Source: Spongiibacteraceae bacterium
Lineage (GTDB): Bacteria; Pseudomonadota; Gammaproteobacteria; Pseudomonadales; Dasaniaceae
DNA: 64,000 nt
Assembly (NCBI GenBank): GCA_028280715.1
Contig: JANQLG010000012.1
Span: 62,211 to 126,210 of the forward strand
Direction: 5' to 3'
The stretch's first letter is position 1, and each line of letters begins with the position of its first letter. The notes beneath the pieces are model-generated. The model had not been told where the DNA came from and searched no databases. It saw nothing but the letters and a program-made list of their open reading frames with translations. Made by a program: the position numbers and the translations under genes. Shown here one piece after another: positions 3,448 to 34,224 of this stretch.

Positions 3448-4965
3448 ATGGAAGCCAAACATTCGGCGGGTACACCCTCTGAAACCAATCATCTGGACAA
3501 CAGTAATACTACCCCTCGATATCGTCTGTTAGCTATTATGCTTGGGCCAGCTGTGTGCTTGTTATTGTCCTCTTTACCTGCGCCGGAAGCTCTTTCCATT
3601 GAATCCTGGAAACTCATTGCACTGACGTCCTGGATGGTATTGTGGTGGATGACAGAAGCTGCACCGGTTGCCGTCACCGCTTTATTGCCTATTCCTTTTA
3701 TGCCAATTTTAGGCATCAGTACCCAACCTGCTGTTACAGCCAGTTATGGCCACCCTTTAGTGTTTTTATTTTTAGGCGGTTTTTTAATTGCAGCAGCCAT
3801 GCAGAGATGGGGCCTGCATAAACGAATTGCACTTAGAATTGTCCAGTTAGCAGGCAATAGCAGTCGTGGCATTATCGGTGGTTTTATGGTTTCCACAGCA
3901 TTCCTTTCGATGTGGATTTCCAACACAGCAACATCACTGATGATGTTTACTGTCGGCATTTCCCTAATTGATTTTGTGTCATCAAAAGTTGAAGACCGTG
4001 CTCAAGTGAGAAATTTCGGCATAGCACTTATGTTAGGAATTGCTTACAGCGCCTCTATCGGTGGAGTTGCAACCTTAATCGGAACACCACCGAACACACT
4101 ATTGGCGGCATTTCTATCAGACAATTACAACATCACTATTGATTTCTCTACCTGGATGGCGGTTGGCGTACCGATTATGCTCATTATGCTTCCTATAGTC
4201 TGGATATTGTTATGTCGATGGATTTTTCCGGTCGGTGATTTACATATTGGGGAGGTTTCAGAATTGGTTTCAGGTGAACTGCATGAATTAGGCGCCATGT
4301 CCCGCGGTGAAAAAGTCGTCATGGTGGTGTTTTGTTTGACGGCTGTTGCCTGGATTACACGAAAGTGGCTGGTGGCTATGACAGGCCTAAATATTTCAGA
4401 TACCTCAATTGCGTTAATGGCAGCATGTGCACTGTTTGTTATTCCGGTATCTTTGCAGCGCAATCAATTTACCGTTGAATGGGAGGCAGCGCACAATGTG
4501 CCCTGGGGTATTTTGATTTTATTCGGTGGCGGCCTGGCGCTAGCTGGTGCTTTTAAAAGTACTGGCTTAGCTGCAACAATTGGTGAATATGTTGGCGGGT
4601 TAAATACCCTGGATATCACGATGATTGTTTTAGTGGCAATCGCAGCTATTATTTTTCTGACTGAAGTGACCTCCAACACGGCAACCACTGCAACGTTTCT
4701 ACCAATCTTAGGCGCTGTCTCTGTTGGTTTGGGCTACAGCCCAATGACATTAGCTATTCCTGCCGCATTAGCAGCGTCTATGGCCTTTATGATGCCCGTG
4801 GCCACGCCACCTAACGCCGTTGTATTTTCCTATGAAGAGATGCACATCAGTGACATGATGAAAGCGGGAATTTGGTTAAACCTAATAACTATCAGCTTGA
4901 TCTATTTGGCCATGATCACATTTATCCCCATACTTTTCGATCTCGGCTATAGCAGTATTTTTTAA
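3448..4965 (+). CDS. DASS/SLC13-family sodium-coupled anion (di/tricarboxylate or sulfate) symporter
   Basis: 505-aa polytopic membrane protein. Conserved SNTA and PPN hairpin motifs occur in both halves (WISNTATSLM.., GTPPNTLL; TSNTATTATFLP, ATPPNAVV). Confidence 0.8.
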   Translation: MEAKHSAGTPSETNHLDNSNTTPRYRLLAIMLGPAVCLLLSSLPAPEALSIESWKLIALTSWMVLWWMTEAAPVAVTALLPIPFMPILGISTQPAVTASYGHPLVFLFLGGFLIAAAMQRWGLHKRIALRIVQLAGNSSRGIIGGFMVSTAFLSMWISNTATSLMMFTVGISLIDFVSSKVEDRAQVRNFGIALMLGIAYSASIGGVATLIGTPPNTLLAAFLSDNYNITIDFSTWMAVGVPIMLIMLPIVWILLCRWIFPVGDLHIGEVSELVSGELHELGAMSRGEKVVMVVFCLTAVAWITRKWLVAMTGLNISDTSIALMAACALFVIPVSLQRNQFTVEWEAAHNVPWGILILFGGGLALAGAFKSTGLAATIGEYVGGLNTLDITMIVLVAIAAIIFLTEVTSNTATTATFLPILGAVSVGLGYSPMTLAIPAALAASMAFMMPVATPPNAVVFSYEEMHISDMMKAGIWLNLITISLIYLAMITFIPILFDLGYSSIF

Positions 4966-5029: not shown

Positions 5030-7381
5030 TCAGAGCGATTCTTTTACAGATTTTCCGATACGCTCTTTTTGTTCATCGTCCAAACTTAATTCCACAGGTA
5101 ATTCCTCAAGCTCAACATCATTAATCATGTTATTACGATCTGTTGCTTCACTAATCACCTGTTGTGGCGACTGTTCAATGTCCTGCAATAATCTACTGCC
5201 CAGAAGTAAATCTGTGGGTTTGCCCATGTCACCTTTGCTGTAATCACAAACACCTTGGGGGAAAATTTTTTCCAGTATTTGTTGATAAGAAGACATATCA
5301 ATAGAGCCATAAACGCCTTTATCTAGTGCTGTTTTTACGGGCTGCAAATGACATTTGAAAATGTCACCAGCAACATCCGCGCCGGCCAATTGTCTGGAAA
5401 CAGAATAAGAGGGGTAAACATCCATACAGGCCCCTTTTTTCAAATCATTCCATGCACCATTCCAAACATCACTCCCAGCGGCAATAATTTTTCCTTCATT
5501 GTCAAAACAAGTATCAACCGCCTGTTTTGGTTTAGCTTTTTTAGTTAACCACTGATCCAGCACAGCAAAAGCTTCAGGCTCACCGGTATGGGGTTTTCGA
5601 GTCACCCATATCAAATGGTTTTCGCTATGGCCCTGCTCTCGCAACAACCGTTTTCGAGCTGAGAAAGAGGCAGATAAATGATGCATGTCCAATTCATCCT
5701 CTAAATAATGCCGTAAATCAATAAGAGGAATCGGCAAATGGCCTAAAAATACATGACCACTGCGATAAACAGCATGCATTGCTTTTATATGACCCTCACT
5801 GCGCACGGCGGGCTTTTCCAACGTTCCATGCCGCATATTTTTATGACTCCAAATGGAAATTCTGATGGGAAAAACATCGCCATTTAAAAACCAGAAATGT
5901 TCCTTACGTAAATCCTTTTGTGCTTTCCAGCCACCGATACTGGCATTGAGTTTTAAAAATTCATCAATGGTAATTTTATTGTCCAATAATGTTTTCAATC
6001 CGTATTGAACACCAACATTGTCCCAAGTGGTTCGGCCATAACCCTGTTCATCAGTACCATAAATTAATTTCAAATCATTCCAATGCGTCCAGTTAACGGA
6101 TTCCACCACATCCGGATGATAATATTTTGCTTTATGCGTAAACGTCGGGTTATTCACCAGAGCTGTTAAACCGCGCCAACCATTGGCGCACTCGGTCTCA
6201 CCATTTTCCATACTGGGAAAAACACCGCTCCTGATTTGTGATAACCGTTGAAACCAGCGAAAACGGCTGGTGATTTCGGCACTGGCATTCAGTCCTTCGA
6301 TATCACGACGATTCTCCCAATCCTGCCAGCGTGGATTATTTCTGTCAGTGACATCGAAAAAGTATTCCAACAACTCACAGTCCATCGCATAAGCTTTCTG
6401 CGTCACCATGTCTGGATAGGCATATTCGGCAATGGCTGCATCGAGAATATCGGGATTATTTTGCGCAAGGATATATTGTTGTACTGCGCCTCCTGATCCG
6501 CCAATGCCAACGGTATAAAGCGGCTCGCCATAAAGTGCAGTAAATTGTTTCTTAACCCTTAGAGCTACATCTTCCGAAGTCCATAAGTTGTAATGATTGG
6601 ATGTTTGGGTACCAGTGGAATAAATAACGGCATAACCCTGCACGAGTTGTTCATACCTGCGTTTAAAAATAATTCGAGGTGACAAACGTCCTTGTCGGTA
6701 GCCAATACCCACACCGCCGCGAAACTGATAAATTAATTTTTGATTCCAATTACTGCCATTGGGGTTATCTAACGTTTCATTGTCGCCACGTAAAGCGACA
6801 ATCATATAGAGAAAGCGATTTATCGTGCCTATCTCTACTCTAACAACAAAATCAATCTCTTTACCGTTTACCACAATTTTTTCAATATCATCATTCGCCT
6901 GTGATAGAGGATAAAAGCTATCTTCGGTATCAACACGTTTGTAATAGTAATTGGCTTGAGTGGGCAGCAGACAATCTTTACTGTAACCCATAACCTGATC
7001 GGTAACAGTGCCCTGCTTATTCAATTTATAAACAGGCACCCCCCAACCCTGATAATTATCAATCAAGGGTTGCCCAAGCCCGGATCGTCTTATCCCACAC
7101 AGAAAAGGATATTGTGGTTCACCCGCAAACAAAGGCTCAACCGGACCTACTTCACCGATATGTATGGGAAAGGTAAAAGTCTCTTCAGGTCGACTGATAA
7201 CCGAAGGATGTAAACCCTGATAGGAAGGCAGCGATATATCCTTTTCAACCGGAGGCATTCCCACAACATATACGGGAGGAATTGATTTAGAATCAGGATG
7301 TAAATAAAAACCTGCGCAGGATATTAATAACAGCGCAAAAAACATCCAGGCAAAATGCAATTTCTTTTTTACAAGCAACAT
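5030..7381 (-). CDS. Large lipoprotein, probable alpha/beta-hydrolase-fold enzyme
   Basis: 783-aa ORF with a lipobox (LLLISCAG) and a nucleophile-elbow-like GIGGSGGA motif. No family recognised by eye. Confidence 0.4.
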   Translation of the reverse strand: MLLVKKKLHFAWMFFALLLISCAGFYLHPDSKSIPPVYVVGMPPVEKDISLPSYQGLHPSVISRPEETFTFPIHIGEVGPVEPLFAGEPQYPFLCGIRRSGLGQPLIDNYQGWGVPVYKLNKQGTVTDQVMGYSKDCLLPTQANYYYKRVDTEDSFYPLSQANDDIEKIVVNGKEIDFVVRVEIGTINRFLYMIVALRGDNETLDNPNGSNWNQKLIYQFRGGVGIGYRQGRLSPRIIFKRRYEQLVQGYAVIYSTGTQTSNHYNLWTSEDVALRVKKQFTALYGEPLYTVGIGGSGGAVQQYILAQNNPDILDAAIAEYAYPDMVTQKAYAMDCELLEYFFDVTDRNNPRWQDWENRRDIEGLNASAEITSRFRWFQRLSQIRSGVFPSMENGETECANGWRGLTALVNNPTFTHKAKYYHPDVVESVNWTHWNDLKLIYGTDEQGYGRTTWDNVGVQYGLKTLLDNKITIDEFLKLNASIGGWKAQKDLRKEHFWFLNGDVFPIRISIWSHKNMRHGTLEKPAVRSEGHIKAMHAVYRSGHVFLGHLPIPLIDLRHYLEDELDMHHLSASFSARKRLLREQGHSENHLIWVTRKPHTGEPEAFAVLDQWLTKKAKPKQAVDTCFDNEGKIIAAGSDVWNGAWNDLKKGACMDVYPSYSVSRQLAGADVAGDIFKCHLQPVKTALDKGVYGSIDMSSYQQILEKIFPQGVCDYSKGDMGKPTDLLLGSRLLQDIEQSPQQVISEATDRNNMINDVELEELPVELSLDDEQKERIGKSVKESL

Positions 7382-27772: not shown

Positions 27773-28336
27773 TTAAGCAGCAAGCCAACATCTTTGCCCA
27801 CTAAAACGGGCTTTTAAGTATTCCATCTGATCACCACGAATCTGGCGATTATCCAGATACATAAATTCAAAAATATTCGGCGCAAAAGGAATGGCTAATA
27901 ATTCCATACCTGCTTGTTCTGGAGTACGACCACCTTTATGGTGATTGCACCGTTCACATGCAGCGACAACATTGGTCCAACAATCCTTACCACCTTGTAC
28001 ACGTGGCACAATGTGATCACGCGTTAACTGCCTGTTATCGAATTCCATTCCACAATACATACAACGTTGACCATCACGCCGAAACAACATCCTGTTAGTT
28101 AGCAGTGGTTCGAAGTTTTGTTTTCCAACATCACCACTGCAGGCAATGATCGGAGCTAGTTGCAAACTTGACTGCAAGCCTTCGCGGTTTACTCCACCAA
28201 AGATCCATAATGACTCAGAACCAAGACTCCAAATCACTTGCTCTTTTACATACATAGTGGCCGCTTCTTGACGGGTTACCCAAGCTTGAGGAACCCCTGA
28301 CTTATTCAATTTCAAAATGCGAGTTTGCTCTTTCAT
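27773..28336 (-). CDS. HNH endonuclease
   Basis: CMYCG...TRDHIVPRVQGGKDCWTNVVAACERCNHHKG (HNH/zinc-finger core). AGGTAGGAG RBS. It sits between tRNA genes. Confidence 0.8.
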   Translation of the reverse strand: MKEQTRILKLNKSGVPQAWVTRQEAATMYVKEQVIWSLGSESLWIFGGVNREGLQSSLQLAPIIACSGDVGKQNFEPLLTNRMLFRRDGQRCMYCGMEFDNRQLTRDHIVPRVQGGKDCWTNVVAACERCNHHKGGRTPEQAGMELLAIPFAPNIFEFMYLDNRQIRGDQMEYLKARFSGQRCWLAA

Positions 28337-28413
28337 ACTCCTACCTCTACTTCATCACTTTCACTCTCACAAATAAAGATGCACTTCCCCTGTGCGACTT
28401 ATCATCCGTAAGC

Positions 28414-28492
28414 TGGTACCCAAGGTGAGAGTCGAACTCACAAAATCAACAGATTCTAAATCTGCACGCTTTGCCAATTTGCGTACCTGGGT
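28414..28492 (-). tRNA. tRNA with UAG anticodon (Leu-decoding) but no long variable arm; non-canonical
   Basis: Acceptor ACCCAGG/CUUGGGU (one G.U), D arm CGCA-AAUUGGCAA-AGCG, anticodon arm GCAGA-UUUAGAA-UCUGU, 7-nt variable region UGAUUUU, T arm GUGAG-UUCGACU-CUCAC, A73, encoded CCA. Confidence 0.6.
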
Positions 28493-28539
28493 AAATTTTG
28501 TGTGCACACATCCCTTGTGCTTGTCTTTCATCCTTAAAC

Positions 28540-28614
28540 TGGTTGGGGCAATGGGAATCGAACCCACCTCCGCCGGATTAAAAGTCCGGTGCACAACCGC
28601 TATGCCATACCCCA
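28540..28614 (-). tRNA. tRNA-Lys (UUU)
   Basis: Acceptor UGGGGUA/UGCCCCA, D arm GCAU-AGCGGUU-GUGC, anticodon arm CCGGA-CUUUUAA-UCCGG, variable CGGAG, T arm GUGGG-UUCGAUU-CCCAU, A73, encoded CCA. 75 nt. Confidence 0.85.
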
Positions 28615-28630
28615 TCTTTCGAAAATAAAT

Positions 28631-28708
28631 TGGTCAGAGTGGTAGGACTCGAACCTACGACCCCCTCCATCCAAAGGAGGTGCGCTAACCAGACTGCGCT
28701 ACACTCTG
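28631..28708 (-). tRNA. tRNA-Pro (UGG)
   Basis: Acceptor CAGAGUG/CACUCUG (C1-G72), D arm GCGC-AGUCUGGUUA-GCGC, anticodon arm CCUCC-UUUGGAU-GGAGG, variable GGGUC, T arm GUAGG-UUCGAGU-CCUAC, A73, encoded CCA. 78 nt. Confidence 0.9.
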
Positions 28709-28723
28709 AAAATCTTTTTACTA

Positions 28724-28798
28724 TGGAGTGCGCAACTGGAATCGAACCAGTGAAAACGGAAGTTGCAGTTCCGCGCATTACCTCTCTGCCACACGCAC
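28724..28798 (-). tRNA. tRNA-Cys (GCA)
   Basis: Acceptor GUGCGUG/UGCGCAC (two wobble pairs), D arm GCAG-AGAGGUA-AUGC, anticodon arm CGGAA-CUGCAAC-UUCCG, variable UUUUC, T arm ACUGG-UUCGAUU-CCAGU, U73, encoded CCA. 75 nt. Confidence 0.85.
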
Positions 28799-28817
28799 TT
28801 TTTGCTCATTGTAAAAG

Positions 28818-28891
28818 TGGCTACGGTGTCCGGACTCGAACCGGAATCCTCGGAGTCAAAGTCCAATGCGTTACCATTTCGCCACACCGCA
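28818..28891 (-). tRNA. tRNA-Gln (UUG)
   Basis: Acceptor UGCGGUG/CACCGUA (U1-A72), D arm GCGA-AAUGGUA-ACGC, anticodon arm UUGGA-CUUUGAC-UCCGA, variable GGAU, T arm UCCGG-UUCGAGU-CCGGA, G73, encoded CCA. 74 nt. Confidence 0.85.
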
Positions 28892-28898
28892 AAAAATT

Positions 28899-28972
28899 TG
28901 GGGTGATGCCGGGAATTGAACCCTGGTCTCCTGGTCCACAGCCAGGCGCTCTACCACTGAGCTAACATCACC
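28899..28972 (-). tRNA. tRNA-His (GUG), one nucleotide short on the 3' side
   Basis: 5' GGUGAUGU-UA, D arm GCUC-AGUGGUA-GAGC, anticodon arm CCUGG-CUGUGGA-CCAGG, T arm CAGGG-UUCAAUU-CCCGG (A.G mismatch), 3' CAUCACC-CCA. The 5' side has the extra G typical of bacterial tRNA-His. Only 15 nt rather than 16 follow the T loop. Confidence 0.65.
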
Positions 28973-28978
28973 ACAATT

Positions 28979-29064
28979 TGGTGGGGAGGGAGTCGAACCC
29001 CCAAAGCTTTCGCGACGCGTTTACAGCGCGCTAGAGTTGCCACATCTCTTCTGTGCCTCCCCGC
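28979..29064 (-). tRNA. tRNA-Tyr(GUA)-like gene with aberrant acceptor/T-arm geometry (non-canonical or pseudo-tRNA)
   Basis: D arm AGAG-AUGUGGCAA-CUCU, anticodon arm GCGCG-CUGUAAA-CGCGU, 12-nt variable region containing GC-GAAA-GC, GGGGG-UUCGACU-CCCUC, end ...CCCCACCA. GGGGAGG can pair with CCUCCCC, but that uses nucleotides needed for the T stem. The gene is 4 nt short on the 3' side and has 4 nt extra on the 5' side. Confidence 0.4.
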
Positions 29065-29068
29065 TATT

Positions 29069-29143
29069 TGGCTGGCCTGGTAGGGGTCGAACCTACGATT
29101 CTCCGGTTAACAGCCGGACGCTTTACCACTCAGCTACAGACCA
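29069..29143 (-). tRNA. tRNA-Asn (GUU)
   Basis: Acceptor UGGUCUG/CAGGCCA (U1-A72, one U.G), D arm GCUG-AGUGGUA-AAGC, anticodon arm UCCGG-CUGUUAA-CCGGA, variable GAAUC, T arm GUAGG-UUCGACC-CCUAC, G73, encoded CCA. 75 nt. Confidence 0.85.
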
Positions 29144-29235
29144 ACAATTTTTAAGCGACCACATTGTTAAAAAACAGCTACCGTGTTGGCGGGTAGCGCA
29201 CCATGTCATTCAAAAAAATTCTACCGTAAAAAAAC

Positions 29236-29270
29236 AAAACCCCGGCTGGGTTCACCAACCGGGGTTTTTG
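29236..29270. terminator. Bidirectional rho-independent terminator between rtcA and the tRNA array
   Basis: AAAACCCCGGCTGG-GTTCA-CCAACCGGGGTTTTT, with an A-run before and a T-run after. Confidence 0.7.
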
Positions 29271-29510
29271 ATTACAAACTCCACTCCGGTTGGCACTAGC
29301 CTCCCGGAATTTCCAAAAGACTAGATTTTCGTTTTTTCACCTACAGACATCACTAGGTGACTTACATTTTTATTAGGCAGACTTTGCCCCTGCTTGCGAC
29401 ACTGCAAACATAAAAACCTTTCATTTATTGACAAATCTTTTGTCGTTTTCCTAAATAAATGGCATATCAAATTAACGATTACCTCTACGCAAAAATTTAC
29501 AGACATAAAA

Positions 29511-29549
29511 AAACCCGATAGATATTTTTCAAAAATACCTACCGGGTTT
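29511..29549. terminator. Long imperfect hairpin flanked by A/T runs (terminator-like) downstream of rtcA
   Basis: AAACCCGATAGATATTTTT-C-AAAAATACCTACCGGGTTT: 19-nt arms with 2 mismatches. Confidence 0.45.
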
Positions 29550-29859
29550 TAAACTTGTTTAAAGCTATTCAACCTGGAAGGCATAAGTGCCTTCCAAAAA
29601 GAAAGACACTGCTACCGATTATTCTCCACATGCGTGAGTGGGTTAATAACCATACGAATGCTATAACAGCACTGCATTAGGTTTTGTTGACCAAAAAATT
29701 TACTCATTACTTTTACTATTCGTTTTGCTTTATTTAAATCTTAATGAAAAATTAAAAAATTATTTCCATCAATTTAGTTGCAGCAATAATAGTATTCAAA
29801 ATTTCAAAGTCAACAAATTATTTATGAAAATATATACTTTATTAAAAAATTTATATTTT

Positions 29860-30885
29860 CTAAACACAAACCTCCCATACACCTTTTTCAATTTCACTCA
29901 ATTGAATATCAATATTCATTAACTGACTTATAATACTAATGTTAGTTAACAGGTGTTGACTTGGTTTTAGCGTTCGAAAAATACCACCCACACCCAATAC
30001 CATTGGCAACAACAACTGATCTGCCAGATATTCTCCTACACTAACATCAACTTTAAGGTAGCGTTTTACTTCTCGAATCGCCTTTTTTGCCACTCGCTCA
30101 GCACTAACACCATGCTCACCTACAACTTCTACCACTTCACTGACGTTTTCACTACACAAACGCAGTGAGAGAATATTGCCAGGACCTTGAGAACGTACAA
30201 GCTGTTGCTTAAGTGTCGACGCTGGCCACAACCCAATACGCCTAACTTGATCAAGTTCTCGTTCAGTAATATGCTCTGGTAAACACGCCGAAGTCGCAAC
30301 GGCTAAACGTGAAACTTCACGGCCACGTTCAACCAAATTTAGCCTTGTGGTTTTCTGCACTGGATAAATTCTTACACGCCAGGCACCACCGCCAGCAGGA
30401 TAAAAACCATAACGTTGTAACTCGACATCAGCCCGATAGCCCATTTGTGCAATAGCTGGCAAAAAACACTCAGCAATAAAATCAAAGCTAGGCGCAAATC
30501 CGTTATGTGTGCCACCTTCGAGATAAATTTCACTCACCTCTTTAGCGAATAACAGTGGCATATATACTGTTTGGAAAACCAAACTGGTACTGCCAGCTGA
30601 ACCCACTGAGAATCGGTATTCTCCAGCTTTAATCATCCCTGGCCTAAAAGTAACTTCCCTAGAACCCAATTCATCACCGGTTATTTCTGCATCGCAAATC
30701 ATTTGCGCAGCTCGTAGGCAAGTTAAGTGCTGCCGCAGCAAACCAGGCTTGGAACGACCTGCACGAATATTTTGTATTCGCACCGATTTTCCTAAACACA
30801 TTGCCAGGGTCAATGACGTTCGAAATATCTGTCCGCCACCCTCTCCTAATGAACCATCTATTACAATCACACTATTTTTCCTCAT
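29860..30885 (-). CDS. rtcA: RNA 3'-terminal phosphate cyclase
   Basis: Close to E. coli RtcA (IDGSLGEGGGQIFRTSL, RAGRSKPGLLRQHL, FYPAGGG, EYLADQLLLPM). The ATG at 30885 matches the E. coli N-terminus. The ORF-track extension to 30936 runs into the tRNA-like element. Confidence 0.9.
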   Translation of the reverse strand: MRKNSVIVIDGSLGEGGGQIFRTSLTLAMCLGKSVRIQNIRAGRSKPGLLRQHLTCLRAAQMICDAEITGDELGSREVTFRPGMIKAGEYRFSVGSAGSTSLVFQTVYMPLLFAKEVSEIYLEGGTHNGFAPSFDFIAECFLPAIAQMGYRADVELQRYGFYPAGGGAWRVRIYPVQKTTRLNLVERGREVSRLAVATSACLPEHITERELDQVRRIGLWPASTLKQQLVRSQGPGNILSLRLCSENVSEVVEVVGEHGVSAERVAKKAIREVKRYLKVDVSVGEYLADQLLLPMVLGVGGIFRTLKPSQHLLTNISIISQLMNIDIQLSEIEKGVWEVCV

Positions 30886-30892
30886 GTTTATT

Positions 30893-31049
30893 TGGTGGAC
30901 GTGACGGGATTCGAACCCGCGTATAACAACAACCAAGGCATTACTCTTGGTCAGTCATAGACTTGGAAACGCGCGCCAGCTGACACCCGCATTAGAGCAT
31001 CGAGCCTGCATCCTCAACCGTACATCTATCACTGATTACGTTGCCACCA
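30893..31049 (-). ncRNA. CCA-terminated tRNA-like element between rtcB and rtcA (Y-RNA/YrlA-like candidate or degenerate tRNA)
   Basis: Minus strand ends GCGGG-UUCGAAU-CCCGU-CACGUCC-A-CCA, 7 nt before the rtcA ATG. The 3' ACGU-CCACCA can pair with UGGUGG-CA-ACGU at 31038..31049. An internal hairpin ACCAAG-AGUAAUGC-CUUGGU is present. No standard cloverleaf could be closed by eye. Confidence 0.4.
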
Positions 31050-31130
31050 GTTTTACCCGGCTACCTTCATGCTAATCATTTTAGGTAGTGACACTCCCTA
31101 CGCATCAGCACACCCTATAATCTCAAACAA

Positions 31131-31153
31131 ATAGTGCCGTCCCTTGGCACTAT
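31131..31153. other. 8-bp hairpin immediately downstream of rtcB (terminator/processing-site candidate)
   Basis: ATAGTGCC-GTCCCTT-GGCACTAT. On the minus strand it is followed by TTGTTTG. Confidence 0.4.
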
Positions 31154-31177
31154 CCCTTGGTACAATGAAACATCCCT

Positions 31178-32404
31178 TTACCCTTTTACACACACCACTT
31201 GTTTTAAGGTGTACACGATTTCCACTAAATCCTGTTGCGCCTCCATCACTTTATCGATGGGCTTGTACGCAGCCGGTGTTTCATCAATCACACCTTTGTC
31301 TTTTCGGCACTCAACATCCGCTGTTGCCTGAAGGTGCTCTTCCAAAGACACCATTTTTTTTGCTTTAGTGCGCGACATCACGCGACCTGCACCATGGCTA
31401 CAACTACAGAAGCTTTCTTCGTTGCCAAGTCCGCGAACAATGTAAGACCGAGCTCCCATGCTTCCGGGGATAATACCCATTTCACCTTCGCGAGCGCGTA
31501 CCGCACCTTTGCGTGTAACCAACACATCTTTTCCATAGTGGTGCTCGCGAGACACATAATTATGATGACAGTTCACCGCTTCCATCCGCGCCTCAAAGAT
31601 CATCCCTAATTCTTCGGTAACCGCTGCGATAACACGAGCCATCATTACTTCTCGGTTAATACGTGCAAAATTTTGTGCCCATTCCACCGCTTCGACATAC
31701 TCATCAAAATGTTCAGTACCTTCTGGCAAGTAAGACAGGTCACTATCAGGCAAATGAATATGCCAACGCTCCATATCTTTCTTAGCCACTTCAATAAAGT
31801 GCGTACCAATGCAGTTACCAACACCACGTGAGCCGCTATGCAACATAAACCATACTCGACCATACTCATCCAAACACACTTCGATAAAGTGGTTGCCAGT
31901 ACCTAAAGTACCCAGATGGTTAATGTTGTTGGTATTTTTCAATACCGGATGTTTATCTACTAACACATCAAATTGTGCTGACAGCGGCATCCAGGCTTTC
32001 ATCACATCATCAGGGACATTACACCACGCACCTTTATCCCGCTTACCGCGCAAACGCCTTGAACGACCATGCGGTACTGCTTTTTCAATCGCATCACGAA
32101 TACCGGCCAAGCTATCAGGCAACTGCTCCGCGGTCAGGCTGGTTCGCACCGCCATCATCCCGCAGCCGATATCTACTCCAACGGCTGCAGGAATCACCGC
32201 ACCTAATGTAGGAACGACGCTGCCAATTGTTGCACCCTTGCCAAGGTGGACATCCGGCATTGCCGCCACCCATTGATGAATAAAGGGCATTCGCGAAATA
32301 TTCTTTAATTGCTCTTTAGCATCTTCTTCAAAAGGAACGCCTCGGGTCCAAGTTTTGATAGGTACACCACCGTCTTGCATTACTTCATAGCGCTCTTGAG
32401 TCAT
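31178..32404 (-). CDS. rtcB: RtcB-family RNA ligase (copy 2, RtcR-controlled)
   Basis: 408 aa with strong similarity to E. coli RtcB. It is divergent from rtcR and has a sigma54 promoter upstream. Confidence 0.92.
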   Translation of the reverse strand: MTQERYEVMQDGGVPIKTWTRGVPFEEDAKEQLKNISRMPFIHQWVAAMPDVHLGKGATIGSVVPTLGAVIPAAVGVDIGCGMMAVRTSLTAEQLPDSLAGIRDAIEKAVPHGRSRRLRGKRDKGAWCNVPDDVMKAWMPLSAQFDVLVDKHPVLKNTNNINHLGTLGTGNHFIEVCLDEYGRVWFMLHSGSRGVGNCIGTHFIEVAKKDMERWHIHLPDSDLSYLPEGTEHFDEYVEAVEWAQNFARINREVMMARVIAAVTEELGMIFEARMEAVNCHHNYVSREHHYGKDVLVTRKGAVRAREGEMGIIPGSMGARSYIVRGLGNEESFCSCSHGAGRVMSRTKAKKMVSLEEHLQATADVECRKDKGVIDETPAAYKPIDKVMEAQQDLVEIVYTLKQVVCVKG

Positions 32405-32470
32405 TGCCTTGTCCTTTAAGTACTGAGTACTTATTAATAATTTTTATCCCATCTCTTTGCCTATGAGTAT

Positions 32471-32486
32471 TGCGAAGGCAGTGCCA
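32471..32486 (-). promoter_or_regulatory. Sigma54 (-24/-12) promoter of rtcB
   Basis: The minus strand reads TGGCAC-TGCCT-TCGCA, with GG and GC at consensus spacing, 67 nt upstream of the rtcB ATG. Confidence 0.75.
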
Positions 32487-32631
32487 ACATTCTTAAAAAG
32501 GTAGAAAATATTTTTATCTTATTGTTTTTAAAGGTTTTATTTTTAGCAGAGTAAAAATTCAAGAAGTTTATCATTCGATTGAATGTATATTTTTATATCT
32601 ATTTTGATATCTATATATTATATTTGATAGC

Positions 32632-34224
32632 ATGAAAACCGTAGCGATCAGCATTCTAGGTACCACTATGGACCGTCGTGGTAAGGGCGAAAAACGCTGG
32701 GACAAATGGCGCCCCACCATTTCCATGTGCCAACACGATGACCTATTGATTGATCGTCTGGAACTGCTATTCGACAACCACTCGCAGAGCCTGGCTGAGC
32801 AAGTCAAAGAGGATATCGCCCGCGTCTCTCCAGAAACCGAAGTGATTTATCACCACGTCAACTTTCATGACCCCTGGGATTTTGAAACGGTCTATGGCGA
32901 ATTGCTCGACTTTGCACGAGGCTATTCTTTTAAACCAAGTAAAGAGCGCTACCTAACACACATCACAACCGGCACCCACGTTGCTCAAATCTGCTTGTAT
33001 CTGTTGACCGAAGCTGGCTACCTGCCAGGCCAATTAATCCAAACATCCCCGGCACCTAGAAACAGTAATGTAGCAGGCCAATATCAAATTATTGATCTGG
33101 ACTTATCCAAGTACGATCAAATTGCGTCGCGCTTTAAAAAGGAGCACTTTGAAGGCACCACTTACTTAAAGGGAGGAATAAAAACCAATAACAAAGCCTT
33201 TAACCAAATGATCGAGCAATTGGAGCAGGTATCGATTCGCTCAAGTGAGCCGATTCTTTTAACTGGCCCCACCGGCGCCGGCAAATCACAACTGGCCCAA
33301 CGGATTTATTCACTAAAAAAACAGCGCGGCCTAATCAGCGGTAATTTGGTCGTCGTCAACTGTGCGACCTTAAAAGGTGAGAATGCCATGTCTGCGTTAT
33401 TTGGCCATAAGAAAGGCGCCTTTACCGGTGCAACAACCGATAGAGCAGGCCTGCTTCGCGAAGCCGATGGCGGCATGTTATTTCTGGATGAAATTGGAGA
33501 ACTTGGTACGGACGAGCAAGCCATGCTGCTACGCGCAATAGAAGATAAAAAATTTATGCCATTCGGCGCTGACAAAGAAACCACCAGCAATTTCTTATTA
33601 ATCGCTGGTACTAATCGCGATTTGAGCGGTCAAGCTCAACGGGGAGAATTCCGCGAGGATTTACACGCCCGCATTGATTTGTGGACCTATCGACTACCTT
33701 CACTTTCAGAAAGGATGGAGGACTTCGAACCAAATCTCGATTATGAACTGGAGAATTACTCCACCAAAACCGGTTATCTCATCAGCTTTAACAAAGATGC
33801 CAGAAAAAAATACCTGCAGTTCGCAACATCGACAGAAGCCACATGGTCAGCCAATTTTCGGGACCTCAATGCCAGCATTACACGCATGGCAACCCTGGCC
33901 AATGGCGGTAGGATTACTGTAAGCGTCGTTAATGAAGAAATTGACCGACTGCAACACAAGTGGCAATCGACAAGCAATAAAAGCCACACCAATGACACAA
34001 CATTACTCAAATCCATTCTCGGTGAAAACAAGATTAAGTCACTGGACTTATACGAGCAGATGACACTAGCACCGGTATTAAAAATTTGTCAAAGCGCCAA
34101 CTCTATGGCCGAAGCAGGAAGAATCCTCTTCAATGTGAGCCGGGAGCAGAAAAAATCCAATAACGACTCACATCGGATAAAACAGATCCTGGATAAACAC
34201 CAGATTAAGTTTGGCGACCTATGA
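32632..34224 (+). CDS. rtcR: RtcR, CARF-domain sigma54-dependent transcriptional activator
   Basis: 530 aa. It has an N-terminal CARF-like region, an AAA+ sigma54-interaction core (LLTGPTGAGKSQLA, GAFTGA, LFLDEIGEL) and a C-terminal HTH. It is divergent from rtcB as in E. coli. Confidence 0.9.
   Translation: MKTVAISILGTTMDRRGKGEKRWDKWRPTISMCQHDDLLIDRLELLFDNHSQSLAEQVKEDIARVSPETEVIYHHVNFHDPWDFETVYGELLDFARGYSFKPSKERYLTHITTGTHVAQICLYLLTEAGYLPGQLIQTSPAPRNSNVAGQYQIIDLDLSKYDQIASRFKKEHFEGTTYLKGGIKTNNKAFNQMIEQLEQVSIRSSEPILLTGPTGAGKSQLAQRIYSLKKQRGLISGNLVVVNCATLKGENAMSALFGHKKGAFTGATTDRAGLLREADGGMLFLDEIGELGTDEQAMLLRAIEDKKFMPFGADKETTSNFLLIAGTNRDLSGQAQRGEFREDLHARIDLWTYRLPSLSERMEDFEPNLDYELENYSTKTGYLISFNKDARKKYLQFATSTEATWSANFRDLNASITRMATLANGGRITVSVVNEEIDRLQHKWQSTSNKSHTNDTTLLKSILGENKIKSLDLYEQMTLAPVLKICQSANSMAEAGRILFNVSREQKKSNNDSHRIKQILDKHQIKFGDL

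What the first reader, a model, noticed from the sequence alone, without database searches (positions are those of the whole stretch)
30893..31177. CCA-terminated tRNA-like element inserted between rtcB and rtcA, in a locus lacking an Rsr/Ro60 gene
Seen: in E. coli rtcB and rtcA are adjacent, whereas here 292 nt separate them. The minus strand ends, 7 nt before the rtcA start codon, with a textbook T arm plus 3' end (GCGGG-UUCGAAU-CCCGU-CACGUCC-A-CCA). No 5' acceptor strand (GGACGUG) exists. Instead the ACGU-CCACCA terminus is complementary to UGGUGG-CA-ACGU about 145 nt upstream (31038..31049), so the two ends could form a closing stem. CCAAG occurs twice and can pair alternatively with one CUUGG. 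Established: in Salmonella and Deinococcus, rtcBA-linked loci encode Y-RNA-like RNAs (YrlA) with a tRNA-like domain that bind Rsr/Ro60. Inference: this may be a YrlA-type or other scaffold RNA co-transcribed with rtcBA. No TROVE-domain gene is present in this window.
Basis: partly seen in the sequence, partly recalled or inferred. Interest (0 to 1): 0.8.

Follow-up and report, generated by a model that had tools for sequence, protein, structure and literature searches.

The report
New tRNA-like RNA in RtcB operons
The gap between the RNA-repair genes rtcB and rtcA holds a conserved 223-base RNA gene that folds like a tRNA, carries the marks that normally specify loading with alanine, matches no family in the current RNA catalogue, and travels with RNA-repair genes and clusters of spare tRNA genes.

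Summary
The T arm plus ACCA end is real. It is the 3' end of a complete 223-nt RNA gene (window 31115..30893, minus strand), not a truncated tRNA. I found 16 homologous loci in Gamma- and Betaproteobacteria. A 15-sequence alignment gives 73 base pairs, 47 of them with compensatory changes, 94% paired against 35-47% for shifted controls. The fold has an acceptor stem, D arm, T arm, an arm with an enlarged loop where the anticodon arm would be, and a ~135-nt domain with a near-invariant core where the variable arm would be. G1-C72, G2-C71, G3.U70, A73 and CCA are kept in 15 of 16 loci while pairs 4-7 covary. That is the alanyl-tRNA synthetase identity set, as in tmRNA. The RNA has no tag reading frame and no YrlA topology or motif, and Rfam 15 has no family for it. 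It sits with rtcB in 12 of 16 loci, usually behind a sigma-54 promoter, next to rsr in 3, and is followed by tRNA genes in 11, from one gene to long arrays. Best reading: a new trans-acting tRNA mimic of the RtcR RNA-repair regulon, probably alanine-accepting. Its function is unproven.

The parts
30893..31115 (-). Whole RNA gene, 223 nt, from G1 to the encoded CCA ('element A').
   Evidence: Covariance model R1 scores it at 242 bits. Ten other loci have a 222-223-nt homolog. 47 of 73 pairs show compensatory change. Coordinates checked.
31109..31115 (-). Acceptor stem, 5' strand GGGUGUG. It pairs with 30903..30897.
   Evidence: All 7 pairs form. Pairs 4-7 covary across homologs and pair 3:70 is G.U in 14 of 15 aligned sequences.
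30893..30903 (-). Acceptor stem 3' strand CACGUCC, discriminator A73 (30896) and CCA (30895..30893).
   Evidence: ACCA is kept in 15 of 16 loci.
31089..31107 (-). D-arm-like hairpin UGAUGC-GUAGGGA-GUGUCA, with an invariant GG-A in the loop.
   Evidence: Pair 11:26 switches from A-U to G-C in 4 sequences. GG and A are invariant.
31062..31087 (-). Arm at the anticodon-arm position: 5-bp stem UACCU/AGGUA with an enlarged 16-nt loop AAAAUGAUUAGCAUGA. It has no 7-nt anticodon loop.
   Evidence: All 5 stem pairs show compensatory change. The loop sequence AAAAUGAUUGACAUG is shared between Gamma- and Betaproteobacteria.
31046..31061 (-). Hairpin P4, GCCGG-GUAAAA-CUGGU.
   Evidence: 5 of 5 pairs covary and the loop UAAA is near-invariant.
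31040..31045 (-). Long-range helix P5, 5' strand GGCAAC. It pairs with 30930..30925 (GUUGUU) and closes the large inserted domain.
   Evidence: 6 of 6 pairs show compensatory change, for example GGCCGU/ACGGUU in L087 and UGCAGCA/UGCUGCA in Eleftheria.
30925..30930 (-). Long-range helix P5, 3' strand GUUGUU.
31024..31033 (-). Helix P6, 5' strand AGUGAUAGAU. It pairs with 30962..30953.
   Evidence: 10 of 10 pairs show compensatory change.
30953..30962 (-). Helix P6, 3' strand GUCUAUGACU.
30963..31023 (-). Near-invariant core (GGUUGAGGAUGCAGGCUCGAUGCU...GCGGGUGUCAGCUGGCGCGCGUUUCCAA), containing one hairpin.
   Evidence: The 3' block was not used as a search key, yet it is identical or nearly so in the 13 less divergent loci. 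GAUGCAGG and CUGGCGCGC are kept in all 16 loci; the flanking UUUCCAA is lost in L004 and reduced in L074. 6 hairpin pairs covary once the divergent members are added.
30931..30952 (-). Hairpin P7, GACCAAG-AGUAAUGC-CUUGGUU.
   Evidence: The stem covaries in at least 7 variants. The loop AGUAAUGC is conserved in the gammaproteobacterial copies.
30904..30920 (-). T arm, GCGGG-UUCGAAU-CCCGU.
   Evidence: 3 of 5 pairs covary, for example GCGAG/CUCGC and GUGGG/CCCAC.
31124..31153 (-). Hairpin AUAGUGCC-AAGGGAC-GGCACUAU plus a U-rich tail, just after the rtcB stop. It looks like a leaky terminator or a processing site. Its role is unknown.
   Evidence: Sequence. An equivalent hairpin with a changed stem and a similar loop is present in L083. 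The consensus terminator scan did not call it.
32471..32487 (-). Sigma-54-type promoter TTGGCACTGCCTTCGCA between rtcR and rtcB. It drives the unit that contains the RNA.
   Evidence: Pattern TGGCAC-N5-T[TC]GC found here and in 9 other element-bearing loci. It lies directly upstream of the RNA in L091 (-79), L078 (-51) and L099 (-30).
31178..32404 (-). rtcB (RNA 3'-phosphate ligase), upstream gene in the same unit.
   Evidence: Translation. 66-88% identical to the RtcB of 80 genomes.
29860..30870 (-). rtcA (RNA 3'-phosphate cyclase), downstream gene. The likely start is GTG 30870; ATG 30885 is the alternative.
   Evidence: tblastn. Start codon argument.
32632..34224 (+). rtcR, the divergent sigma-54 activator.
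   Evidence: Translation. Homologs are present in 9 of 16 element-bearing loci.
27571..29143 (-). Array of 8 tRNA genes downstream of rtcA (Asn, His, Gln, Cys, Pro, Lys, Leu, Met). It is context that recurs, from one gene to long arrays, in 11 of the 16 loci.

Best explanation
Shown: this is a gene for a roughly 223-nt trans-acting RNA that folds as an enlarged tRNA. It has a 7-bp acceptor stem, D arm and T arm. An arm with an oversized loop replaces the anticodon arm. A ~135-nt domain with a near-invariant core sits where the variable arm would be.

Shown from layout: the gene moves as an independent module within RtcR/sigma-54 RNA-repair units. It is found after rtcB, after rtcA, before rtcB, before rsr, or at the head of a tRNA array.

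Inferred: it is transcribed with the operon when RtcR is activated by RNA damage. The ordinary tRNA-processing enzymes then cut it out, with RNase P cleaving at G1 and 3' trimming back to the encoded CCA.

Inferred from established identity rules: because G1-C72, G2-C71, G3.U70, A73 and CCA are held constant while the rest of the stem drifts, alanyl-tRNA synthetase charges it with alanine, as it does tmRNA. The RNA then acts on the damaged or stalled translation machinery that the Rtc system services. It cannot decode and carries no tag message, so it would work like the tRNA-like half of tmRNA alone. The conserved inserted domain would serve as the docking surface for a partner protein or the ribosome.
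For: Structure: 73 pairs, 47 with compensatory change. 94.2% of cells are paired against 35-47% when partners are slid, and 0 of 500 shuffles reach any measure (12-sequence version). The single-sequence fold reproduces every internal helix.

Independent module: the RNA has five different positions relative to rtcB, rtcA and rsr. In L004 it has its own terminator. In the L081 group a terminator lies upstream of it.

Regulon: sigma-54 promoters lie upstream of the unit in 10 of 16 loci. RtcB is present in 12 of 16, RtcR in 9 and RtcA in 7.

Alanine identity: pair 3:70 is G.U in 14 of 15 aligned sequences, plus L004, and in 10 of 11 distinct stems. A73 and CCA are kept in 15 of 16 loci. Pairs 4-7 each show 3-4 pair types.

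Control for identity: in 32 YrlA-type modules from the same loci, pair 3:70 is G.U in only 6 of 25 distinct stems and ACCA follows in 8 of 32.

Closest catalogue match: the only Rfam model that touches the region is tmRNA, through its tRNA-like ends (20 bits, E = 3.5e-6).

Context fits translation rescue and repair. PrfH-like release factor plus a second RtcB (L088), Tpt1/KptA (L081), a CCA-adding-type nucleotidyltransferase, RlaP, and tRNA genes lie nearby. E. coli RtcB repairs tmRNA (PMC9650030).
Against: There are no expression, end-mapping or charging data. Aminoacylation is inferred only from identity elements.

One divergent member (L074) has G3-C70 and ends in ACCG. The Budvicia copy (L078) lacks a canonical T arm.

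No conserved tag reading frame exists. The candidate codons lie inside helix P5, which covaries as RNA. No smpB-like gene turned up among the neighbors scanned. A D stem is present, unlike tmRNA.

The near-invariant core and the adjacency to rsr and YrlA in three loci fit a protein-scaffold (Y-RNA-like) role at least as well.

The z-score of the single-sequence fold is unremarkable (-1.41).
Confidence: 0.4

Rival explanations
1. Y-RNA-like scaffold. The invariant inserted domain binds a repair protein: Rsr/Ro60 where it is present, otherwise RtcB, RtcA or the RtcR CARF domain. The tRNA-shaped module recruits a tRNA-binding partner or protects the RNA from exonucleases. Alanine charging would be absent or incidental.
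For: In L074 the RNA lies between rsr and rtcB among three YrlA genes. In L078 and L099 it is the first element behind the sigma-54 promoter and is followed immediately by rsr. Its T arm and acceptor end resemble those of YrlA closely enough for the model to pick up YrlA copies at 15-24 bits. The ~60-nt core is conserved far more strictly than the helices, as expected for a protein-binding site. The window core has a helix GGCU-C(bulge)-GAUG that recalls the GGUC-C-GA Ro-binding helix of animal Y RNAs. That resemblance is from memory and is a lead only.
Against: 13 of 16 loci, including the window, have no rsr within reach. The GNCGAAN0-1G motif is absent from the core. The bulged-C helix sequence is not kept in the very copies that sit next to rsr (L099, L078). 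A scaffold role does not explain why G3.U70, A73 and CCA are held constant when YrlA lets them drift.
Confidence: 0.3
2. Decoy or sensor. The RNA mimics tRNA and is bound or cut by the same tRNA-targeting nucleases that trigger the Rtc response. It either soaks them up or yields 2',3'-cyclic-phosphate 5' fragments that feed back on the RtcR CARF domain.
For: RtcR is activated by tRNA 5' halves ending in cyclic phosphate, and YrlA has been proposed as a competitive inhibitor of an anticodon nuclease (PMC7790460). Spare tRNAs of cyanobacterial arrays co-regulated with rtcB were proposed to act as sponges (PMC8421152). The RNA is followed by tRNA genes, from one gene to long arrays, in 11 of 16 loci. 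It has an exposed, sequence-conserved loop where the anticodon loop would be.
Against: A decoy needs neither a 135-nt domain with an invariant core nor a conserved alanine identity set. The enlarged loop does not resemble any particular anticodon loop. Because the RNA is made only after induction in most loci, it cannot be the primary sensor.
Confidence: 0.15
3. Purely cis-acting element. A tRNA-like fold serves as an RNase P 'punctuation' signal, stabiliser or attenuator that uncouples rtcB and rtcA expression.
For: In the window it lies between two cistrons, preceded by a terminator-like hairpin and followed closely by the rtcA ribosome-binding site.
Against: Its position relative to genes differs in almost every lineage, and it can stand alone with its own terminator or at the head of a tRNA array. 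Punctuation would not need 223 conserved nucleotides with an invariant core.
Confidence: 0.05
4. Dead remnant of a tRNA or tmRNA gene, or the attachment-site scar of a mobile element.
For: The window copy lacks a standard cloverleaf. ARAGORN and the Rfam tRNA model do not call it, and the tmRNA model matches only the ends.
Against: A full-length structure is maintained by compensatory changes across Gamma- and Betaproteobacteria, and the length is conserved at 222-223 nt in 11 of 16 loci.
Confidence: 0.01

Closest known systems
tRNA-like domain of tmRNA (SsrA; Rfam RF00023)
   Same: 7-bp acceptor stem with G1-C72, G2-C71, G3.U70, A73 and an encoded CCA. T arm with a UUCGAAU-type loop. A large non-tRNA insert sits between the two halves of the tRNA-like part. 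It is the only Rfam model that touches this RNA. There is a functional link to the Rtc system, since RtcB repairs tmRNA in E. coli (PMC9650030).
   Different: No tag reading frame or conserved resume/stop arrangement. No PK1-PK4 or long P2 helix. A base-paired D stem and an extra arm at the anticodon position are present. It is 223 nt long against about 360 nt for typical bacterial tmRNA (my own knowledge). It scores 20 bits against a gathering score of 47, and ARAGORN does not call it.
YrlA, the bacterial Y RNA of rsr-rtcBA operons (Chen et al. 2014, PMC4201824)
   Same: A tRNA-mimicking RNA encoded in RtcR-controlled RNA-repair operons. T arm, D arm and acceptor-type stem are of similar sequence. 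It co-occurs with YrlA and rsr in 3 loci.
   Different: YrlA is circularly permuted: its ends form the Ro-binding stem and its acceptor-like stem is closed by a loop. It carries GNCGAAN0-1G, is about 100-130 nt long by my estimate from the copies seen, and lies within 4 kb of rsr. This RNA is unpermuted, ends in CCA, lacks the motif, has a 135-nt extra domain and mostly occurs without rsr. YrlA does not conserve G3.U70 or ACCA.
tRNA-Ala and class II tRNAs with long variable arms
   Same: Overall order of acceptor, D, 'anticodon' arm, insert at the variable position, T and acceptor. Alanine identity set at the acceptor end.
   Different: No 7-nt anticodon loop, so no decoding. C8 instead of U8. 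The variable-position insert is ten times longer than any tRNA variable arm and has its own invariant core. It is not detected by tRNA finders.
Stress-induced accessory tRNA arrays co-regulated with rtcB (cyanobacterial L-arrays, PMC8421152)
   Same: Genomic theme: rtcB, an HNH endonuclease gene and an array of extra tRNA genes lie together, as in the window.
   Different: That work describes no tRNA-like or tmRNA-like RNA. Regulation there is by a repressor, not RtcR/sigma-54. This entry is context, not a family for the RNA itself.

Membership tests
YrlA (bacterial Y RNA) | Permuted tRNA-like domain: 5' and 3' ends pair in the Ro-binding stem, ordered T arm, then closed acceptor-like stem-loop, then D arm. 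| tested here: not met
   The covariation-supported fold has the ends at the acceptor stem, ordered D arm ... T arm. Genuine permuted YrlA copies in L027, L029, L038, L074 and L078 were used for comparison.
YrlA (bacterial Y RNA) | GNCGAAN0-1G motif near the 5' end (proposed Rsr contact). | tested here: not met
   Read by eye against the sequences. Absent from the window copy and from the conserved core. It occurs only inside a lineage-specific insertion of L078, and near-misses occur in some D loops.
YrlA (bacterial Y RNA) | Encoded within about 4 kb of rsr (TROVE) on the same strand. | tested here: not met
   No rsr in the 64-kb window or in 13 of 16 loci. The feature is met in L074, L078 and L099.
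YrlA (bacterial Y RNA) | Bound by Rsr/Ro60. | not testable with these tools
   Needs immunoprecipitation or an in vitro binding assay.
tmRNA (SsrA) | tRNA-like domain: acceptor stem with G3.U70, A73, CCA, and a T arm. | tested here: met
   Kept in 15 of 16 loci.
tmRNA (SsrA) | mRNA-like domain with a tag reading frame ending in a stop codon. | tested here: not met
   No frame is conserved. The best candidate (GCA-ACG-UAA) lies in helix P5, which covaries as RNA. It reads A-T, A-A, I-T, A-V, M-A or 9-10 codons in different homologs (sequences; read by eye).
tmRNA (SsrA) | Pseudoknots PK1-PK4 and the long P2 helix; match to the family model. | tested here: not met
   Rfam tmRNA scores 20 bits against a gathering score of 47 and aligns only the two ends. 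ARAGORN finds no tmRNA.
tmRNA (SsrA) | Alanylation by AlaRS and SmpB-dependent entry into stalled ribosomes. | not testable with these tools
   Only the identity elements can be read from sequence.
Canonical tRNA | Cloverleaf with a 5-bp anticodon stem and a 7-nt anticodon loop; recognised by tRNA models. | tested here: not met
   No ARAGORN or Rfam tRNA hit. The arm at that position has a 16-nt loop.
Canonical tRNA | Acceptor stem, D arm with GG, T arm with a UUCGAAU-type loop, 3' CCA. | tested here: met
tRNA remnant or attachment-site scar | Only a 3' fragment of a tRNA or tmRNA, with no selection on structure. | tested here: not met
   A full 5' partner is present and 47 of 73 pairs show compensatory change.

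The most novel reading that the evidence does not exclude
The RNA is an alanine-charged, message-less analogue of tmRNA, switched on by RtcR together with RtcB. It enters ribosomes that are stalled or nuclease-damaged, accepts the nascent chain on alanine, and either releases it or marks it. That would be a second, stress-inducible ribosome-rescue or alanine-tailing route in Proteobacteria, independent of SsrA. Its conserved inserted domain would dock RtcB or Rsr onto the damaged ribosome.
Probability: 0.2. Interest if true: 0.92.

Novelty: new variant of a known kind. Interest (0 to 1): 0.78.

Why it matters
The natural substrates and partners of the bacterial RtcB/RtcA repair system are still poorly defined. 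A conserved RNA that the operon itself carries is a concrete handle on that question. It can be deleted, tagged, pulled down and tested for charging.

The RNA joins three themes that have been studied separately: RNA repair by RtcB, tRNA mimicry by Y RNAs and tmRNA, and accessory tRNA arrays. It shows that RNA-repair operons carry a second type of tRNA mimic beside YrlA. That type keeps the full alanine identity set, which YrlA does not.

If it is charged, it would be a rare non-decoding aminoacyl-RNA besides tmRNA. If it is not, the strict conservation of G3.U70, A73 and CCA needs another explanation. Either way it is a well-supported candidate for a new Rfam family.

Tried and rejected

2. 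The inner GGGUGUC (30988..) as the 5' acceptor strand, as the Rfam tmRNA alignment used it. It is invariant while the 3' strand changes, and it cannot pair in L082 or L089 (CAUCUCC).

3. A tmRNA-type tag frame or a small ORF (AUG-AUU-...-UAA) in the enlarged loop. Neither is conserved. L004 lacks the AUG, and L082 and L089 differ in frame.

4. A kink-turn or box C/D-like motif in the enlarged loop. It fits the window and the L081 group but not L005, L004, L087 or L082.

5. A Ro-binding-like bulged-C helix in the core. It is only a resemblance, not statistically distinctive (by my estimate an 8-mer with two mismatches is expected about once by chance in 223 nt), and it is not kept in the rsr-linked copies.

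6. Searches that found nothing further:
- phage genomes
- 5,426 E. coli genomes
- plasmids other than one Eleftheria megaplasmid
- viral contigs with the 20-mer
- a looser gapped pattern, which gave only chance hits, with 0 of the 80 loci kept (of at least 120 pattern matches) confirmed by the model
- exact-protein look-up of the window RtcB, which is not on record

7. The 525-aa gene after Eleftheria rtcB is not a divergent Rsr.

8. The Burroughs and Aravind 2016 survey of RNA-repair operons could not be read, so I cannot exclude that it mentions this RNA.
Full report
**What is at the coordinates**

On the minus strand, rtcR (32632..34224, +) is divergent from rtcB (32404..31178). A 292-307-nt gap and rtcA follow. 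The rtcA start is ATG 30885 or, more likely, GTG 30870, which has a GAGGA ribosome-binding site and is the conserved start in L083.

ARAGORN finds 9 tRNA genes in the window but nothing in the gap. Rfam at gathering thresholds finds only those tRNAs.

A permissive Rfam scan of the gap gives one notable sub-threshold hit. The tmRNA model scores 20 bits against a gathering score of 47 (E = 3.5e-6) and matches through its two tRNA-like ends only.

**The missing 5' strand**

GGGUGUG at 31115..31109 pairs with CACGUCC in all seven positions, two of them as G.U. That defines a 223-nt molecule, 31115..30893.

The first homolog settled the matter. In an Agarilytica genome (L005) the two strands read GGGCAUG and CGUGUCC, with coordinated changes at three positions.

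**Homologs**

The 80 closest rtcB loci from species-representative genomes yielded four copies. Three were found later with the model.
- L005: between rtcB and rtcA.
- L004: after rtcA, followed by its own terminator.
- L078 (Budvicia aquatica).
- L074.

An invariant 20-mer from the core found 10 metagenome contigs. BLAST found one copy on a 737-kb Eleftheria terrae (Betaproteobacteria) plasmid record. A second core pattern found one copy in a predicted provirus region (L099).

Phage genomes, E. coli genomes and other plasmids gave nothing. That makes 16 loci in total, two of which carry identical copies. The RNA is 222-223 nt long in 11 of them. Five carry lineage-specific differences in length:
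- 77 nt in a hairpin loop (L005)
- a 281-nt domain replacing a small hairpin (L004)
- 16 + 60 nt, with the 60 nt inside the T loop after UUCGA (L083)
- an expanded T region (L078)
- small differences (Eleftheria)

**Structure**

RNAalifold on 12 trimmed sequences predicts 73 pairs, 38 with compensatory change.

On the model-based alignment of 15 sequences, 47 of 73 pairs show compensatory change. 94.2% of cells are paired against 35-47% when partners are slid by 1-3 columns. No shuffle out of 500 reaches any of the five measures (the 12-sequence version is).

The helices, in window coordinates:
- Acceptor stem: 31115-31109 with 30903-30897.
- D arm: 31107-31089. Pair 11:26 switches A-U to G-C, and the loop has an invariant GG-A.
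- Arm at the anticodon position: 31087-31062. It has a 5-bp covarying stem and a 16-nt loop that starts AAAA.
- Hairpin P4 with a GUAAAA loop: 31061-31046.
- Long-range helix P5: 31045-31040 with 30930-30925. 6 of 6 pairs covary.
- Helix P6: 31033-31024 with 30962-30953. 10 of 10 pairs covary.
- Near-invariant core: 31023-30963.
- Hairpin P7 with an AGUAAUGC loop: 30952-30931.
- T arm: 30920-30904.

The minimum-energy fold of the window sequence alone reproduces all the internal helices. Its z-score is unremarkable (-1.41), so the evidence is comparative, not thermodynamic.

**The acceptor end**

Pairs 1:72 and 2:71 are G-C. Pair 3:70 is G.U in 14 of 15 aligned sequences and also in L004. The discriminator is A, and CCA is encoded in 15 of 16 loci. 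Meanwhile pairs 4-7 each show three or four pair types.

A wobble pair that stays fixed while its neighbors turn over is under direct selection. By established knowledge (Hou and Schimmel 1988; McClain and Foss 1988), G3.U70 with A73 and G2-C71 is the identity set of alanyl-tRNA synthetase. tmRNA carries the same set.

As a control I collected 32 permuted YrlA-type modules from the same loci. There pair 3:70 is G.U in 6 of 25 distinct stems, and ACCA follows in 8 of 32. For this RNA the figure is 10 of 11 distinct stems. The one exception is L074, which has G3-C70 and ends in ACCG.

**Genomic context**

The RNA is a mobile module inside RtcR/sigma-54 repair units.
- rtcR <> rtcB - RNA - rtcA: window, L083, L087, L005.
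- rtcB - rtcA - RNA - terminator: L004.
- rtcB - RNA: L082 and L085.
- sigma-54 promoter - RNA - rtcB: Eleftheria.
- sigma-54 promoter - RNA - rsr - YrlA - rtcB: Budvicia.
- rtcR <> sigma-54 promoter - RNA - rsr: L099.
- rsr - YrlA - RNA - YrlA - YrlA - rtcB: L074.
- Head of a tRNA array: L081, L084, L086, L088, L090. In L088 and L084 the array lies next to a divergent RtcB paralog, which in L088 is paired with a PrfH-like release factor. In L081 it lies next to Tpt1/KptA.

A TGGCAC-N5-T[TC]GC promoter precedes the unit in 10 of 16 loci. In the window it lies at 32487..32471.

Clustering of neighboring genes gives RtcB in 12 loci, RtcR in 9, RtcA in 7, an SPFH/Band-7 protein in 6, HNH in 4, Rsr in 3 and RlaP in 4 counting the window.

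The RNA is followed by tRNA genes in 11 of 16 loci, from a single gene to long arrays. The window has 8 and L081 has 17.

The window has no rsr (the query was verified as TROVE + Ro60-vWA).

**Comparison with known families**

YrlA (PMC4201824) is a permuted tRNA mimic with a GNCGAAN0-1G motif, and it is linked to rsr. Real examples appear in tandem upstream of rtcB in the alphaproteobacterial loci. This RNA has the opposite topology, lacks the motif and mostly lacks rsr, so it is not a YrlA. It does share a similar T arm and acceptor end with YrlA and sits among YrlA genes in L074, so a common origin is plausible.

tmRNA shares the charged-end features. This RNA has no tag frame and no pseudoknot series, it has a D stem, and it scores far below the family threshold. 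It is therefore not a tmRNA.

It is not a decoding tRNA either. No Rfam 15 family matches it. Full-text searches found no description of it. One relevant survey could not be read.

**How it most likely works**

Shown:
- It is a conserved, structured, independently positioned RNA gene in the RtcR regulon.
- It has tRNA-type acceptor, D and T arms.
- It keeps a fixed alanine identity set.

Inferred:
- It is excised by RNase P and 3' trimming.
- It is charged by AlaRS.
- It acts in trans on the translation apparatus, with the invariant domain serving as a docking surface.

Published findings fit a role in servicing the translation machinery. RtcB repairs tmRNA (PMC9650030). RtcR senses damaged tRNA (PMC7790460). 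tRNA arrays are co-regulated with rtcB (PMC8421152). The PrfH-RtcB rescue module lies next to some copies.

I put 0.40 on the alanine-accepting, tmRNA-half-like reading. I put 0.30 on a Y-RNA-like scaffold, 0.15 on a decoy or sensor, 0.05 on a purely cis role and about 0.01 on a remnant.

**Verdict**

The broader idea of an operon-borne scaffold-type RNA is partly right.

The feature is a new family of tRNA mimic, and it gives a direct experimental handle on what the Rtc system does.

Noticed in passing
window 27499..27735 (-); also L083 6003-6250, L005 8782-9013, L006 8330-8650, L003 8480-8800, L001, L002, L017, L007, L013, L014, L087: A second conserved RNA region of about 270 nt ('element B') lies just upstream of the SPFH/Band-7 gene. 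It has a 5' domain (AAAGAGUUUGGG..GGUUCUG..GGCACAA..UUGUGUACC) and then a tRNA or tRNA-like unit. That unit is a good tRNA-Met in the window (27646..27571). In L001-L003 and L017 its anticodon loop is odd or degenerate (6-nt loops in L002, L003 and L017; a 7-nt loop read as Phe-AAA in L001), and it reads as Ile-AAT or Asn-ATT elsewhere. A hairpin follows, then GGCGA(A/G)AG, a second T arm (GGGGUUCGAGUCCCC), and the SPFH start codon. Apart from the embedded tRNA unit, it is not in Rfam.
   Followed up: partly
window 23070..34224: The finding sits in an 11-kb RNA-repair island. On the minus strand after rtcR it contains: sigma-54 promoter, rtcB, the RNA, rtcA, two terminators (29550-29510, 29268-29236), 7 tRNA genes, an HNH endonuclease (28336..27773), element B with tRNA-Met, SPFH (27206..26061), a CCA-adding/poly(A)-polymerase-type enzyme with an HD domain (26019..24766), an unassigned ORF (24739..23834) and RlaP (23837..23070).
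   Followed up: partly
L083 about 2412-2471; L078 about 3570-3640: Two distant copies of the RNA carry about 60 extra nucleotides in the T-arm region, and both insertions share CCCGAAGGG. In L083 the insertion sits right after UUCGA of the T loop, a spot where T-loop motifs tolerate insertions (my own knowledge). In Budvicia no canonical T arm remains. I could not tell whether this is an optional domain, a mobile mini-element or something that gets spliced out.
   Followed up: partly
L027, L029, L032, L037, L038, L039, L051, L069, L072 at about 5300-6000; L074 3290-4040: Alphaproteobacterial rsr-rtcB loci carry two to five tandem YrlA-type Y RNA genes between rsr and rtcB (GGCGAAUGCCGG..GGGACUACAU..T arm..closed acceptor-like stem..D arm). 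Some keep G3.U70 plus ACCA in the closed stem.
   Followed up: partly
L088 1160-2937 (-); L084 1-1023 (-); L081 3082-3642 (+): In the lineage where the RNA heads a tRNA array, the divergent neighbor is a distant RtcB paralog. In L088 it is paired with an RF-1-domain (PrfH-like) gene, which is the ribosome rescue-and-repair pair. In L081 the gene just upstream is an RNA 2'-phosphotransferase (Tpt1/KptA).
   Followed up: partly
L083 6117-6192; L087 2485-2559; L001 8413-8488: tRNA genes with A at the first anticodon position (Ile-AAT, Asn-ATT, Phe-AAA) occur in these islands. These anticodons are unusual for bacteria (my own knowledge). They are the tRNA unit of element B.
   Followed up: no
L077 2221-2340; L079 3651-3768: There are short (about 120 nt) unpermuted tRNA-like sequences ending in ACCA, with an A-rich enlarged loop at the anticodon position, just upstream of rsr in Sphingomonas-type loci. 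They match the model weakly (24-29 bits) and may be a small relative of the RNA that lacks the large domain.
   Followed up: no
L081 12784-13003 (-): A group I intron (Rfam 52.8 bits) lies next to a tRNA-Cys gene at the far end of the tRNA-array locus.
   Followed up: no
window 31124..31153 (-): A hairpin with an AAGGGA(C) loop and a U-rich tail lies directly after the rtcB stop. It is kept with a changed stem in L083, and comparable hairpins occur in L087 and L082. It may be a leaky terminator or a processing site that sets the ratio of rtcB to the downstream RNA and rtcA.
   Followed up: no
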